DNA from: a virus | Length of the DNA: 22,898 nucleotides | Reading direction: 5' to 3' (one strand) | Virus genome (UHGV): UHGV-1634937 | Part shown: one piece after another, positions 7,489 to 10,047 of the stretch | Layout: every line of letters starts with the position of its first letter | Position numbering within the stretch: position 1 is the stretch's first letter | Notes under the pieces: model-generated | What the model saw: only the letters and a program-made list of their open reading frames with translations | Told to the model about the DNA's origin: nothing | The model's database searches: none | Translations under genes and position numbers: made by a program

Positions 7489-8190
7489 TTATTCTGATTC
7501 TCGCTCAAAAAATGAGCTGATAAGGGGAAGCCAATCCTCTGACACTTCGCGAGGTCGCGGTTTGCCGTGGAAAAAGATTATTCGGCAGTCTTTTGGTAAT
7601 GCCCCATTCCCCCTGGAGTAACGCGCGCTCGCATATTTTGAACCAGGTTCCACAACATCGGCCTTGTAACTTACAAACCATCCTGGATACAGATCCTGAA
7701 ATGCTGGTGTATCATCGCCCATAACCTTTCGTAAGAACCCCTGGTCACCCCAGCACTCAGTAGTGACACAACGAGAAATCCAACCTTCCGGATCTTGCCA
7801 GAATGAACTCCAGATATGCGCTTTAACACTATTTGGTATCCACAGGGCACCGCTGCCACGATATTGTGGATGGTAAAAATCCCTAAGCATGGTGAAGCTG
7901 GTTGGTGGATGCTCTAGGATTGGGCGTATATCACCGGCAATAACCGTGTCCAAATCCAGATAGAACAGATCATCGGTTATATCCGGTCGGAACAACTCGA
8001 TTTTCGCCCACCAGCCACGGCACTTTTGCCACTGGTTGATCAATGGGACAACTTTGACGCCAGGTACATGTAAACGCTTCAGGTCTGTCAGGCAAATAAT
8101 TTCATAGCCTTTTGGCAGTTGATTAACCAGCCACTGCACATCGGAAGCGTTATAGTCACCACCAGAGCGAAAAACTAAAGCAATCTTCAT
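7489..8190 (-). CDS. putative nucleotide-sugar transferase-like protein (233 aa)
   Basis: ATG overlaps the phosphatase TGA (ATGA); WAKIELFRP ... YLDLDTV resembles a DxD-type glycosyltransferase motif (weak, by eye). Confidence 0.4.
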
Positions 8191-8879
8191 GCTGCACCAT
8201 CACCTTTCACTTTCATCAATGTCAGGTTTCCGCAAAATACGGCACCAGTGTCGATATACTGCTGATTCCAGAATGTCTTCGGGCTTTTCACCGGAGTGTG
8301 ACCAAAGATAAAACGATCTGCGCCCGAAATTTCGCCACCAATATCATCCATCGAATCACTGATACGCTCGCGCGCCCAGACAACGTTGAAAAGCGGCACC
8401 TCCTTACCGAATTGGTATTCATTATCCGGATAGTCGGCATGGGCTATAACGATAGTTTCTTGCCCCGTGTTCAACTCAATGATATAGGGCAGACGCTTTA
8501 CCAGCTCCACCAGCGCCCAGGCTAATATTTCCTGATCAGTGTCCAGCATGAAGAACCATTGTCCGCCATTCATTAGCCAGTTATTCACGTTGCCATCTGG
8601 ACTTAACGCATCAATCATCAGCCGCTCATGGTTCCCCATCACTGCCCTGAACCAGGGCATCTGCAATAGTTCCAGACATTCGACATTTTCAGTACCGCGA
8701 TCGATAAGGTCGCCGACCGATATCAGTAAATCCTGCGCCGGGTCAAAATCCACACGATGGAGTTCGGACATCAGTCTGGTGTAGCAACCATGCAGATCAC
8801 CAACAACCCAGACATTCCTGTATTTGGTACCGTCGATACGGTGATAAATTGTGGGTGCCATCATGTATTCTTCAGCCAT
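8187..8879 (-). CDS. ppp: Ser/Thr protein phosphatase, lambda-PPase family
   Basis: Metallophosphatase motifs GDLHG, GDLIDRG, GNHE; near co-linear with lambda PPase as I recall it ([15 protein letters not shown]...). Real start may be the ATG at 8864, which overlaps the upstream TGA. Symbol is the P1 name, from memory. Confidence 0.75.
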
Positions 8880-9487
8880 TCTTTAAGAGTCATCTGCGGA
8901 ATACCTCCCATTTTCCCGCATGAAACAACGTCAATCTGTTCACGCGCAGACTGGAATAACAAAGGCAGGTGACTTAGATTTTTTGGCGTGCCGCCGGAGT
9001 GAACGCGTAGTTCTTGCGTAGCGTCAACGCCCACCAGAGCTACATGTTTGAATCCGATATGGAAAGCCAGGTTCAGAGCACCATATGCACTATTGCCGCT
9101 GGCAATTTCATTCTCATCTTCGCAAAGGCCGAAATGTGCGGACCAGCGCCACGCCCACCACTCGGGAGAATTCGTATTTTTTGGCTCCATGCCGCGTTCA
9201 GCCACACGACGGAAGCACAGAACGCCATCTCTGACTTCACGTTCTTTAACATCGGGTAGTGCCATGCAATAACAAACACCACGGCGACGGCGGCCACGAC
9301 CAACGCGCCGCATATTGTCTGGGGATGGATCAAGGGTGAAAAAATAAGAAGCGCGGTTAAGCCAGTCGATGGCCCCATTGACCGCTATAATCGGCACTCC
9401 GCGCGGCGCAACAAAGTTTGCGGCGCTTGGGCCACTGCCGACGATAATAACGCGATCACTGCCTCTAAATTTATTCTTGGGAAACAT
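8861..9487 (-). CDS. MptE/DUF115-like protein (208 aa), paralog of 9385..10047
   Basis: VIIVGSGPS ... [10 protein letters not shown] ... ALVGVD pattern; AGGAG RBS; family assignment by eye, low certainty. Confidence 0.45.
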
Positions 9488-10047
9488 TGAATTGCACTGC
9501 TCCTACTTGCATTCAAAATATGTAAATCTGCGTGTTTTTTGCGGGTATCCAGGAACTGCTGTTGCCATTTTGAAATAGACACCTGCGTTGGATTCCGTAG
9601 TGCTTGAGGGTGCGCGCCATGCCAATGAAGGCCGTTTTGCAGAGAACAGTCATAGCCGACTAATACCACTACTTCAGCCCCTGATTCAGCAGCCAGACTG
9701 ATAGCCTGCGCGCCGCTATTTACCCCTTCCGCCGGTCCACAATATCGCCTGTACTCCAACGAAAATGATTTCGCCGCCGCCAGGTTGGCTGTCACTTTGC
9801 GGAATCTCCCTCCCGGTATGGTGGATCCGTATTGCTTCCACCATGACAAATCACCGGCGTATAAGGCATAAATGTCATCGAACATCTGCCAGGAATTGTT
9901 AACCGCGATGATTGAACAGCCAGTTTTTTCTATAGCAGCACAGTCCTCACGAGTGAGTGACGGACCGCTACCGACACAAAAAACAGTCCTAGTCGCCCTG
10001 GGTGGTATGTTCATTCTCAGCTGCAAATTCAGCCTCCAGGCGAGCAT
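9385..10047 (-). CDS. MptE/DUF115-like protein (about 220 aa), paralog of 8861..9487
   Basis: FCVGSGPSL ... IIAVNNSW ... VLVGYD; last 34 codons overlap the N-terminus of the downstream paralog in another frame; exact start uncertain (10047 or 10014). Confidence 0.4.
   Translation of the reverse strand: MLAWRLNLQLRMNIPPRATRTVFCVGSGPSLTREDCAAIEKTGCSIIAVNNSWQMFDDIYALYAGDLSWWKQYGSTIPGGRFRKVTANLAAAKSFSLEYRRYCGPAEGVNSGAQAISLAAESGAEVVVLVGYDCSLQNGLHWHGAHPQALRNPTQVSISKWQQQFLDTRKKHADLHILNASRSSAIQCFPRINLEAVIALLSSAVAQAPQTLLRRAECRL

What the first reader, a model, noticed from the sequence alone, without database searches (positions are those of the whole stretch)
7489..10047. Cluster of sugar-transferase-like genes around the lambda-type phosphatase
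A DxD-type transferase-like gene (7489-8190), the PPase (8187-8879) and two paralogous GSGPS-motif proteins resembling MptE/DUF115 Maf-type transferases (8861-10047) are co-transcribed. With the GT4-like gene at 15982 and the HAD phosphatase at 5346, this suggests a phage-encoded glycosylation or nucleotide-modification pathway acting on DNA, protein or surface polysaccharide.
Basis: inference. Interest (0 to 1): 0.5.

Follow-up and report, generated by a model that had tools for sequence, protein, structure and literature searches.

The report
Phage P1 sugar-transferase gene cassette
These are the known but uncharacterised phage P1 genes pmgO, pmgP, ppp and pmgQ; three of them, probably with dbn, form a sugar-transferase cassette shared by many unrelated phages and some bacterial adhesin islands, which most likely decorates a protein with a short sugar chain, while the phosphatase is an unrelated insertion.

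Summary
The window is a P1-like phage-plasmid, and the finding is the annotated operon pmgN-pmgO-pmgP-ppp-pmgQ.

- **PmgQ** is a GT8-like GT-A glycosyltransferase with an invariant DxD and an HGxPxP motif (model pLDDT 94.5; top structural hits are all GT8).
- **Ppp** is a lambda NinI-type phosphatase.

What is new is the context. O, P and Q travel together, usually in that order, in lambdoid, HK97-like, jumbo and P1-like phages of diderm bacteria. They occur as O-P, P-Q and Q-P fusion proteins. They also sit beside Big_1 inverse-autotransporter adhesin genes in enterobacterial chromosomes.

The slot between P and Q holds Ppp only in P1/P7. Elsewhere it is empty (JK004) or holds a Dbn homolog, a sulfotransferase or a methyltransferase. 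So Dbn probably belongs to the module, and Ppp and Pap do not.

Published deletions of all six genes show no plaquing or antirestriction defect. The best reading is a cytoplasmic protein O-glycosylation module whose acceptor is unknown. DNA modification is unlikely. The genes are known; the cassette concept and its target are not.

The parts
9385..10047 (-). pmgO: single-domain Maf/MptE/GT42-like transferase (paralog 1). The true start is probably the ATG at 10014.
8861..9487 (-). pmgP: second Maf/MptE-like transferase, a distant paralog of PmgO. Its GSGPS loop is encoded inside the 103-nt overlap with pmgO.
   Evidence: ORF. Alignment A3 has invariant P20, N37, D53, GNSA, GxD and H173-L-P. 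hhalign against the PmgO family gives 98.3%, E 2.2e-14. Pfam MptE-like scores 3.4e-4, below the cut-off. The family has 515 clusters at 50% identity with E<=1e-3 among 1.84 billion representatives.
8187..8879 (-). ppp: lambda NinI-type Ser/Thr metallophosphatase. It is a lineage-specific insertion in the P-Q slot and not a cassette member.
   Evidence: Pfam Metallophos 9e-16. NCBIfam PRK11439 3e-81. PHROG NinI-like 5e-113. Absent between P and Q in JK004, and present without O/P/Q in D6.
7489..8190 (-). pmgQ: GT8-like retaining GT-A glycosyltransferase.
   Evidence: Alignment A1 has invariant D79-L-D81, W60 W61 K63, G148 D149, S174 K176, and H208 G209 P211 P213. The profile against PDB hits AgtA (GT8) at 1.8e-6, GlyE and glycogenin. 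AF2 model pLDDT is 94.5. The Foldseek top 50 is almost entirely GT8 folds. hhalign to E. coli WaaJ gives E 4e-4 and aligns the DxD and HxxGxxKP motifs.
15982..16980 (-). dbn: GT4-like (GT-B) putative glycosyltransferase in the ban operon. It is a probable fourth member of the module, encoded apart from it.
   Evidence: Pfam Glycos_transf_1 3.5e-5, below the cut-off. An EX7E-like 'ESLGLTVLE' is present in the translation. A homolog sits between P and Q in phage EP_H11 (48.7% identity, E 4e-96). Homologs lie near P-Q in L104 and L003.
9989..10144 (-). pmgN: 51-aa ORF at the head of the operon, overlapping the annotated pmgO start. No family assignment.
   Evidence: P1 annotation. Sequence. No Pfam hit. 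CRISPRi knockdown lowers plating (EOP 1.4e-2), but the same table lists the deletion as non-essential.
10188..10204 (+). C1 repressor operator Oppp (Op83), just upstream of pmgN. The operon is repressed in the lysogen.
   Evidence: P1 record feature at 79435-79451, mapped with window = 89639 - P1 coordinate. The mapping is validated by operator matches at 5330-5346, 7422-7438, 7471-7487 and 11095-11111. This site has 4 mismatches to the consensus (read).
11126..11144 (-). Late promoter LPpmgL, upstream of pmgL-pmgM and the cassette.
   Evidence: P1 record feature at 78495-78513, same coordinate mapping.
7422..7487 (.). C1 operators OpmgRa and OpmgRb, immediately downstream of pmgQ. They mark the start of the next unit (pmgR-pmgS-pap), and so the end of the cassette operon.

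Best explanation
pmgO, pmgP and pmgQ are a mobile three-enzyme glycosyltransferase cassette, and dbn, encoded elsewhere in P1, is probably a fourth member.

**The enzymes.** PmgO and PmgP are paralogous single-domain enzymes. Their fold is that of the catalytic core of Maf flagellin glycosyltransferases and of GT42/GT29 sialyltransferases. They probably work as a pair. PmgQ is a GT8-type retaining GT-A enzyme with a DxD metal site. Dbn is GT4-like.

**Shown here.**
- The fold and motif assignments.
- The paralogy of PmgO and PmgP.
- Co-occurrence, conserved gene order and gene fusions of O, P and Q across unrelated phages.
- Frequent company of glycan-tailoring enzymes.
- Presence next to Big_1 adhesin genes in bacterial chromosomes.

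**Inferred.** During lytic growth the enzymes use host nucleotide sugars in the cytoplasm to build a short O-linked glycan on a protein acceptor. In phages that acceptor would be a virion protein, and in the chromosomal islands an adhesin. PmgO and PmgP would add a CMP-activated ulosonic acid. CMP-Kdo is the only such donor E. coli K-12 makes (established knowledge), and no locus I examined carries sugar-nucleotide synthesis genes. PmgQ and Dbn would add hexoses from UDP-sugars.

**Not part of the pathway.** Ppp is a lambda-type protein phosphatase that landed in the variable slot between P and Q in the P1/P7 lineage. Pap is an unrelated PNKP-type phosphatase.

The module is dispensable for plaque formation in the laboratory.
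For: **Identity.** The region is P1 pmgN-O-P-ppp-Q.

**Enzyme class.**
- PmgQ is GT8-like.
- PmgO resembles Maf, MptE and Cst-I.
- PmgO and PmgP are paralogs.

**Functional coupling of O, P and Q.** They lie contiguous in:
- phage phiNP of C. rodentium;
- a C. sedlakii prophage;
- a Pseudomonas prophage;
- marine gammaproteobacterial phages;
- Brevundimonas and Sinomicrobium loci;
- phages EP_H11, XacN1 and JK004.

In the Methylophilaceae locus only P and Q are contiguous, and in the Longimicrobiales locus P and Q lie about 3.4 kb apart with no O found.

Fusion proteins exist: O-P (P0092), P-Q (P0222, P0288), Q-P (P0313) and Q-P-methyltransferase (P0271).

**Glycan-tailoring partners** in or beside the cassette:
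- Sulfotransfer_2;
- FkbM methyltransferases;
- class-I methyltransferases;
- a TylF-like sugar O-methyltransferase fused to Q in XacN1;
- extra Nucleotid_trans-like GT-A genes;
- a Dbn-like GT4 between P and Q in EP_H11.

**Late or structural position.** The cassette lies directly after the major capsid gene, or between the lysis genes and terminase. P1 has late promoter LPpmgL upstream.

**Protein acceptor.**
- In Pseudescherichia and related genomes, O lies 60 nt downstream of an inverse autotransporter gene with 7 Big_1 domains. P and Q lie beside further Big_1 proteins.
- In Serratia, O heads a run of two Big_1 genes.
- The nearest solved relatives act on proteins: Maf on flagellin, and AgtA, GlyE and glycogenin on protein-linked glycans.

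**Ppp is independent**.
Against: - No acceptor has been identified, and no glycosylation of P1 virions is reported. The P1 virion proteome paper does not mention any.
- Deletions give no plaquing or antirestriction phenotype (deletions listed).
- Three phage contexts place the cassette beside DNA or nucleotide-metabolism genes rather than structural genes: L106 with DNA pol A and RNR, EP_H11 with PolX and ligase, and XacN1 with RNR.
- The Big_1 proteins next to the bacterial copies have no phage homologs.
- The CMP-Kdo donor is pure inference. Similarity to the Kdo transferase WaaZ is marginal (hhalign probability 11-20%).
Confidence: 0.5

Rival explanations
1. The cassette modifies LPS or another envelope glycolipid or polysaccharide. 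PmgQ would act like the GT8 LPS-core glucosyl- and galactosyltransferases. PmgO and PmgP would act like Kdo or sialyl transferases. The result would mask the receptor, since P1 adsorbs to the LPS core. That could serve superinfection exclusion, spare progeny from adsorbing to debris, or cause lysogenic conversion.
For: - GT8 contains the LPS-core enzymes. The PmgQ profile aligns with E. coli WaaJ across the DxD and HxxGxxKP motifs (E 4e-4), and LgtC is among the fold hits.
- All hosts found are diderm.
- There is faint or marginal similarity of O and P to the KdoIII transferase WaaZ.
- The site between lysis genes and terminase in lambdoid prophages is a common moron site (interpretation from general knowledge).
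Against: - The operon is under C1 operators and a late promoter in P1, so it is not expressed in lysogens.
- The cassette is also present in large phages (EP_H11, XacN1), where no integrase or repressor was seen in the 12 kb examined.
- It is never next to LPS, O-antigen or flippase genes in the loci examined.
- The chromosomal copies sit with adhesin genes, not waa or rfb genes.
- PmgQ is closer to protein-glycan GT8 enzymes (AgtA 1.8e-6) than to WaaJ.
Confidence: 0.2
2. PmgO and PmgP are not glycosyltransferases. They are MptE/thiamine-pyrophosphokinase-like (pyro)phosphotransferases that activate a hydroxyl group on a small molecule or sugar. PmgQ and Dbn then use or further modify the product.
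For: - The only Pfam family hit is MptE-like.
- Invariant acidic residues (D35, D66, D133 in PmgO; D53, D155 in PmgP) could bind Mg-ATP.
Against: - The two sequence motifs align with the CMP-binding motifs of Cst-II.
- Conserved His residues lie where sialyltransferases have their catalytic base (position compared from memory of Cst-II).
- All partners are glycosyltransferases and sugar-tailoring enzymes.
Confidence: 0.12
3. The cassette glycosylates or otherwise hypermodifies phage DNA or nucleotides to evade restriction or other defence. This is one of the first reader's options.
For: - In three phages the cassette lies beside DNA-metabolism genes (DNA pol A and RNR in L106; PolX and ligase in EP_H11; RNR in XacN1).
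- MptE and TPK enzymes act on hydroxymethyl or hydroxyethyl groups, chemistry reminiscent of 5-hydroxymethylpyrimidine activation (analogy only).
Against: - Deletion of each gene leaves P1 antirestriction on EcoK, EcoA and EcoB hosts unchanged.
- No hydroxymethylase or TET/JBP-type gene appears in the window, and P1 DNA is not known to be hypermodified (general knowledge).
- The cassette occurs in bacterial chromosomes next to adhesin genes and as isolated P-Q pairs among metabolic genes.
- None of O, P or Q resembles the known DNA glucosyltransferases: no T4 alpha- or beta-glucosyltransferase appears among the listed fold hits.
Confidence: 0.06

Closest known systems
Maf (motility-associated factor) flagellin glycosyltransferases, DUF115/MptE-like (PDB 5mu5)
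   Different: PmgO and PmgP are about 200-aa single domains. They lack the N- and C-terminal domains of the 632-residue Maf chain 5mu5. There is no flagellar gene context. They score below the Pfam cut-off. They occur as a conserved paralog pair with a GT8 enzyme. E. coli K-12 makes no CMP-pseudaminic or CMP-legionaminic acid.
GT42 sialyltransferases Cst-I/Cst-II of Campylobacter (the source of the database name 'alpha-2,3-sialyltransferase')
   Different: Profile E-values are about 0.3, so membership is not supported. The host has no CMP-Neu5Ac. The RefSeq and PHROG product name over-reaches.
CAZy family GT8 (glycogenin, AgtA/GlyT, GlyE, LgtC, WaaJ/WaaO)
   Same: PmgQ has the GT-A fold, the DxD motif, and a C-terminal His-Gly-x-Pro motif equivalent to HxxGxxKPW. 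Its top sequence and structure hits are GT8.
   Different: PmgQ is shorter (233 aa). It has no hit to any Pfam model and forms a small, distinct clade (41 word-index hits). It is always partnered with PmgP.
Mycobacteriophage virion glycosylation (Che8, Corndog, Myrna; Freeman et al. 2023, cited in PMC11256854)
   Same: Phage-encoded glycosyltransferases are proposed to decorate capsid or tail proteins. They are dispensable for growth.
   Different: The hosts are different (actinobacteria). I could not compare the enzymes, because the primary paper is not held. For P1 the glycosylation itself is hypothetical.
Dedicated adhesin glycosyltransferases of autotransporters (Aah/TibC heptosyltransferases with AIDA-I/TibA; HMW1C with HMW1)
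   Same: The glycosyltransferase gene is placed next to the adhesin gene, and the enzyme acts in the cytoplasm before export. The arrangement of O, P and Q around the Big_1 inverse autotransporter resembles this.
   Different: The enzyme families are unrelated (GT-B heptosyltransferases, GT41). Glycosylation of inverse autotransporters by O/P/Q is untested.
Phage lambda NinI (lambda protein phosphatase)
   Same: Ppp is 64% identical according to the P1 record. It has all the metallophosphatase motifs.
   Different: No functional difference is expected. Its position inside a transferase operon is peculiar to P1/P7 and appears to be incidental.

Membership tests
GT8 glycosyltransferases (PmgQ) | GT-A fold most similar to GT8 structures | tested here: met
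   AF2 model pLDDT 94.5. Foldseek top hits are 6mw5, glycogenin, GlyE, LgtC, WbbM, LARGE1 and XXYLT1, with E of 1e-8 to 1e-6.
GT8 glycosyltransferases (PmgQ) | DxD metal/nucleotide-sugar motif and C-terminal His motif (HxxGxxKPW) | tested here: met
   Invariant D79-L-D81 and H208-G209-x-P211-x-P213 across 27 family members. These align to the glycogenin and WaaJ motifs.
GT8 glycosyltransferases (PmgQ) | Match to the curated family model (Pfam Glyco_transf_8) above threshold | tested here: not met
   No Pfam or NCBIfam family at E<=0.1. Only a family profile reaches GT8 structures (E 1.8e-6).
GT8 glycosyltransferases (PmgQ) | Retaining transfer from a UDP-sugar | not testable with these tools
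   Needs an enzyme assay.
MptE-like / DUF115 superfamily including Maf (PmgO, PmgP) | Pfam PF01973 at or above the gathering score | tested here: not met
   PmgO scores 23.4 bits and PmgP 20.9 bits against a cut-off of 34.6. Some relatives pass (P0092 44.6 bits, P0257 44.1 bits).
MptE-like / DUF115 superfamily including Maf (PmgO, PmgP) | Shared fold with Maf and MptE | tested here: met
MptE-like / DUF115 superfamily including Maf (PmgO, PmgP) | N-terminal GxGPS loop and central (N)SG...G(Y/V)D motif | tested here: met
   Invariant in both families.
Maf flagellin glycosyltransferases proper | Multi-domain architecture with flagellin-binding domains, and a flagellar glycosylation locus | tested here: not met
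   PmgO and PmgP are 208-220 aa single domains. No flagellar or nonulosonic-acid synthesis genes occur in any locus examined.
GT42 alpha-2,3-sialyltransferases (the database name of PmgO) | Significant sequence similarity to Cst-I/Cst-II | tested here: not met
GT42 alpha-2,3-sialyltransferases (the database name of PmgO) | CMP-Neu5Ac donor available in the host | not tested
   E. coli K-12 lacks sialic acid activation (established knowledge). This was not examined here.
Lambda-type PPP phosphatases (Ppp) | Metallophos domain with GDxHG, GDxxDRG and GNHE motifs, and close similarity to NinI/PrpA | tested here: met
   Pfam 59.3 bits against a cut-off of 21.5. NCBIfam PRK11439 3e-81. PHROG NinI-like 5e-113. 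The motifs are read in the translation.
GT4 glycosyltransferases (Dbn) | Glycos_transf_1 domain and EX7E motif | tested here: inconclusive
   Pfam 23.8 bits against a cut-off of 26.4. 'ESLGLTVLE' is present. No PDB sequence hit.
Phage DNA glycosylation systems (T4 alpha/beta-glucosyltransferase type) | Loss of the genes sensitises the phage to restriction | tested here: not met
   In the literature, deletions of pmgO, pmgP, pmgQ, ppp, pap and dbn (listed) are among the knockouts that leave EOP on EcoK, EcoA and EcoB hosts unchanged (PMC9024508; per-gene status). Only type I systems were tested.
Phage DNA glycosylation systems (T4 alpha/beta-glucosyltransferase type) | Accompanying base-hydroxymethylation genes; enzymes restricted to phages | tested here: not met
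   None in the window. The cassette also occurs in non-phage chromosomal loci.
HAD PNKP-type phosphatases (Pap) | HAD_PNKP domain above threshold, with the DxDxT motif | tested here: met
   Pfam 44.1 bits against a cut-off of 27.6. PHROG polynucleotide kinase 6e-56. 'DIDGT' is present in the translation.

The most novel reading that the evidence does not exclude
A previously unrecognised glycosylation system exists in tailed phages of Gram-negative bacteria, including the paradigm phage P1. It is a Maf-like enzyme pair plus a GT8 enzyme, often with a GT4 enzyme and sugar methyl- or sulfotransferases. It would decorate virion proteins with a short, possibly Kdo-containing, tailored glycan. Bacteria would have adopted the same module to glycosylate Big_1 inverse-autotransporter adhesins.
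Probability: 0.3. Interest if true: 0.7.

Novelty: new variant of a known kind. Interest (0 to 1): 0.45.

Why it matters
Virion glycosylation has so far been shown only for mycobacteriophages, where it alters antibody recognition (cited in PMC11256854). If P1 and many phages of Enterobacteria, Pseudomonas, Xanthomonas and marine bacteria carry a dedicated protein-glycosylation module, several things follow.
- Four of P1's "putative morphogenetic" or unknown genes (pmgO, pmgP, pmgQ, dbn) would gain a function after 20 years.
- It would bear on the immunogenicity and stability of therapeutic phages.
- It would define a new, compact clade of Maf-like transferases that may use a housekeeping donor.
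- It would predict that inverse-autotransporter adhesins are glycoproteins.

Even if the target proves different, the O-P-Q(-Dbn) cassette and its variable tailoring slot form a clean unit for experiments. Existing P1 deletion mutants make the tests easy.

There is also a practical annotation point: the propagated product names "alpha-2,3-sialyltransferase" and "norphogenetic protein" are unsupported.

Tried and rejected
- Single-sequence searches of PmgQ, PmgO, PmgP and Dbn against PDB sequences gave nothing significant. Only family profiles or models worked.
- The PmgP profile against PDB gave nothing.
- The viral-contig scan with P1 PmgP returned only near-identical P1-like loci and added no diversity.
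- Literature searches for DUF115 or MptE-like proteins in phages, and for sialyltransferase-like prophage genes with capsid glycosylation, found nothing relevant. The P1 genome paper (PMC523184) and Freeman et al. 2023 (PMC10527164) are not held.
- A link to the Kdo transferase WaaZ was tested and is only marginal (hhalign probability 11% and 20%). The "faint" precomputed WaaZ_KDO_III hit on P0092 was not reproduced at E<=1.
- I asked whether the Big_1 proteins next to the bacterial cassettes are phage-derived. They have no tblastn match in 50,697 phage records.
- The AFDB fold library was unavailable.
- The C1 operator consensus search does not find Oppp at 3 mismatches or fewer. It has 4 mismatches, so I rely on the P1 annotation for it.
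- I considered Ppp as a glycan-tailoring phosphatase because it occupies the same slot as the sulfo- and methyltransferases. I rejected this as the main reading because of D6 and JK004 and its 64% identity to lambda NinI.
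Full report
**What the region is.**
The window is a P1-like phage-plasmid. Positions 7000-10800 are 99.9% identical to phage vB_EcoM-Ro157c2YLVW and 99.3% identical to phage P1, in reverse orientation.

Mapping onto the annotated P1 record uses window = 89639 minus the P1 coordinate. Four C1 operator matches check the mapping. On this mapping the finding is:
- pmgQ, 7489-8190
- ppp, 8187-8879
- pmgP, 8861-9487
- pmgO, 9385-10047

All four are on the minus strand. They are preceded by the small ORF pmgN, by the C1 operator Oppp, and further upstream by pmgM (VRR-NUC), pmgL and the late promoter LPpmgL. The GT4-like gene at 15982 is dbn, in the ban operon. The HAD phosphatase at 5346 is pap, in the next C1-controlled unit, pmgR-pmgS-pap.

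RefSeq already calls PmgQ "glycosyltransferase", PmgO "alpha-2,3-sialyltransferase" and Dbn "possible glycosyltransferase". The P7 record calls the genes hdmA-D, "head morphogenesis". None of these names rests on experiment.

**Checking the observation.**
The ORFs, their overlaps (103, 19 and 4 nt) and the motifs are as described.

Single-sequence domain searches are weak:
- PmgQ has no Pfam or NCBIfam hit.
- PmgO and PmgP hit MptE-like below the gathering score.
- Dbn hits Glycos_transf_1 below the gathering score.
- Ppp is an unambiguous NinI-type metallophosphatase.

For PmgQ I aligned 27 homologs. The alignment has an invariant D79-x-D81, WW-K, GD, S-x-K (S174, K176) and H208-G-x-P-x-P. 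Its profile hits GT8 structures: AgtA at 1.8e-6, then GlyE and glycogenin. The AlphaFold model (pLDDT 94.5) retrieves GT8 folds almost exclusively. PmgQ is a divergent GT8-type GT-A enzyme.

PmgO and PmgP look barely related by BLASTP (E 0.004). Their family profiles align over 160 columns at 98.3% probability.

**The main result: a conserved O-P-Q cassette.**
I built HMMs from the three alignments and ran them over ORFs from related loci. The three genes lie together in very different genomes.

*Between the lysis genes and terminase:*
- C. rodentium phage phiNP: O-P-Q, with O and P overlapping by 94 nt.
- A C. sedlakii prophage: O-P-Q.
- A metagenomic phage: an O-P fusion, then Q, then an extra GT-A gene.

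*Directly after the major capsid gene of HK97-like phages:*
- Pseudomonas: capsid, O-P-Q, an extra GT-A gene, head-tail connectors.
- Gilvimarinus: capsid, a small DUF7210 protein with PTEPTEP repeats, O-P-sulfotransferase-Q.
- Zhongshania: capsid, O-P-methyltransferase-Q.

*Other phage or phage-like contexts:*
- Methylophilaceae: P-Q, then a head-tail connector.
- Brevundimonas: portal and capsid, then O-P-methyltransferase-Q, then the tape measure gene.
- Sinomicrobium (Bacteroidota): O-Q-P followed by an FkbM methyltransferase, between DNA pol A and RNR.
- Longimicrobiales: Q and P with FkbM methyltransferases.
- Jumbo phage XacN1: O-P, then a TylF-like methyltransferase fused to Q.
- Escherichia phage EP_H11: O-P-Dbn-Q.

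P is accompanied by Q in every locus that has sequence downstream of it.

Among the representatives of the PmgP family there are fusion proteins: O-P, P-Q (twice), Q-P and Q-P-methyltransferase. The family has 515 clusters at E<=1e-3 among 1.84 billion proteins. Conserved order, translational overlap and fusions in several combinations are strong evidence that the three proteins work in one pathway, probably as a complex.

**What belongs and what does not.**
The position between P and Q is a variable slot. Its contents differ from phage to phage:
- Ppp in P1 and P7.
- Nothing in phiNP, the Pseudomonas prophage, or the P1-like Cronobacter phage JK004. JK004 otherwise keeps pmgM...O-P-Q-pmgR-pmgS-pap.
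- A Dbn homolog in EP_H11.
- A sulfotransferase or a class-I methyltransferase elsewhere.

Phage D6 has ppp (86% identity) among lambdoid-type small genes and has no O, P or Q. Ppp is therefore an insertion, not a pathway component.

Dbn is different. Besides EP_H11, where it is 48.7% identical (E 4e-96), Dbn-like genes lie about 3 kb from P-Q in Buttiauxella and Serratia. Dbn also carries an EX7E-like motif. I consider it a probable fourth transferase of the module, split off into another operon in P1.

Pap is a PNKP-type HAD phosphatase and co-occurs with the cassette only within P1-like genomes. I see no link to sugar chemistry.

**What the cassette acts on.**
This is inference. Three observations point to a protein acceptor.

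First, the nearest characterised relatives act on proteins. Maf acts on flagellin. AgtA, GlyE and glycogenin act on protein-linked glycans.

Second, in five related Enterobacteriaceae genomes (Pseudescherichia and allies) the genes are not in a prophage.
- O lies 60 nt downstream of a 1166-aa inverse autotransporter with an IAT beta-domain and seven Big_1 domains.
- P and Q lie between that gene and further Big_1 proteins.
- In Serratia, O heads a run of two Big_1 genes.
- This resembles the dedicated glycosyltransferases placed beside autotransporter adhesins (Aah, TibC, HMW1C; general knowledge).

Third, in most phages the cassette lies in late regions, often immediately after the capsid gene. 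P1 has a late promoter upstream.

The accessory enzymes all fit assembly and tailoring of a short glycan: a sulfotransferase, FkbM, TylF-like and class-I methyltransferases, and extra GT-A and GT4 genes. No locus I examined carries sugar-nucleotide synthesis genes, so the donors should be host housekeeping nucleotide sugars. For a sialyltransferase-like enzyme in E. coli K-12, that suggests CMP-Kdo. All hosts found are diderm. This last step is speculative, and similarity to the Kdo transferase WaaZ is marginal.

**Rival readings.**
LPS modification is the most serious rival. GT8 includes the LPS-core transferases, and the PmgQ profile aligns with WaaJ at E 4e-4. Against it:
- The operon is repressed by C1 in lysogens.
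- The cassette never neighbours LPS genes.
- The chromosomal copies sit with adhesin genes.

A pyrophosphokinase activity for O and P cannot be excluded from the fold alone.

DNA modification is unlikely for three reasons.
- In-frame deletions of pmgO, pmgP, pmgQ, ppp, pap and dbn (listed) are among 24 knockouts reported without a plaquing defect or a change in antirestriction on EcoK, EcoA and EcoB hosts (PMC9024508). CRISPRi agrees that all six are non-essential (PMC10695390).
- No base-hydroxymethylation genes are present.
- The cassette also lives in non-phage loci.

One fact counts for this rival: three phages place the cassette next to DNA-metabolism genes.

**Comparison with what is known, and novelty.**
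The genes themselves are long known and already carry transferase-like database names. As an observation about P1, this is not new.

I found no paper that describes any of the following:
- O-P-Q(-Dbn) as a unit
- its fusions
- its spread across phage types
- its association with Big_1 adhesins
- any function for it

The enzymes are new, divergent members of known superfamilies (GT8, Maf/MptE-like, GT4). The system, a Maf-like pair plus a GT8 enzyme with a variable tailoring slot, is best described as a new variant of a known kind. The nearest functional analogues are mycobacteriophage virion glycosylation and adhesin-dedicated glycosyltransferases. The name "alpha-2,3-sialyltransferase" fails its membership test.

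**Verdict.**
The glycosylation module and the dbn link stand. The phosphatases do not belong. DNA is an unlikely target.
- Confidence that this is a real multi-enzyme glycosylation cassette is high, about 0.8.
- Confidence that the acceptor is a protein is moderate. Confidence in the full stated mechanism is about 0.5.
- Interest is moderate (0.45). These are well-known genes with no laboratory phenotype, but there is now a sharp hypothesis that existing P1 mutants can test easily.

Noticed in passing
window 9385-9487 (pmgO/pmgP overlap) and 10014-10047: pmgO and pmgP overlap by 103 nt, and PmgP's essential GSGPS loop is encoded inside the overlap. Long overlaps (70-94 nt) recur in enterobacterial relatives. 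Elsewhere the overlap is 4-13 nt, or the two genes are fused. The annotated PmgO start is probably too far upstream: relatives begin near M12 (ATG at 10014), and residues 1-15 model with pLDDT below 50.
   Followed up: partly
window 9989-10144 (pmgN): CRISPRi knockdown of the 51-aa pmgN lowers P1 plating to 1.4e-2. The same table lists its deletion as non-essential, and the downstream genes are non-essential too (PMC10695390 table). The discrepancy is unexplained.
   Followed up: no
window 18734-19561 and 18400-21500: Between ban and dmt this phage differs from the P1 reference. It carries a 275-aa SPFH/Band_7 lipoprotein (Pfam 1e-30) where P1 has tciA, tciB and tciC, and the interval is about 570 bp longer.
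   Followed up: partly
window 897-3275: The left end carries Ead/Ea22-like genes (897-1385 and 2400-3275) rather than the hot-lxr-humD-phd-doc region of reference P1. The window is a mosaic P1-like variant.
   Followed up: partly
window 18631-18706, 20707-20782, 20785-20860: Three tRNA genes on the minus strand: Met/Ile2-type (CAT), Thr (TGT) and Asn (GTT). They correspond to P1 trnI, trnT and trnA.
   Followed up: yes
window 5346-5852 (pap) and 10211-10789 (pmgM): Pap is a T4-PNK-like HAD 3'-phosphatase domain, with no kinase domain found. PmgM is a VRR-NUC nuclease (Pfam just below the cut-off; PHROG 'Holliday junction resolvase'). Both suggest nucleic-acid end-processing or repair rather than morphogenesis.
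   Followed up: partly
L086 7154-7555: In a marine HK97-like phage, the gene between the capsid gene and the cassette encodes a 133-aa protein. It has a DUF7210 N-terminus and a PTEPTEPTEP repeat, a mucin-like stretch that would be a natural O-glycosylation acceptor. phiNP also has a DUF7210 gene after its capsid gene.
   Followed up: no
L094 220-13338 and L003 10001-17785: The enterobacterial islands have several Big_1-domain proteins that lack obvious signal peptides. The islands also hold an RCC1-repeat/Big_1 protein and, in Serratia, a lipoxygenase and two copies of the O gene. Their nature is unclear.
   Followed up: partly
L114 8857-10298 and L115 8989-9633: An isolated P-Q pair lies among metabolic genes in one bacterial chromosome. 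A lone Q gene lies between lpdA and acnB in Pantoea. So the enzymes also exist outside phages and adhesin islands.
   Followed up: no
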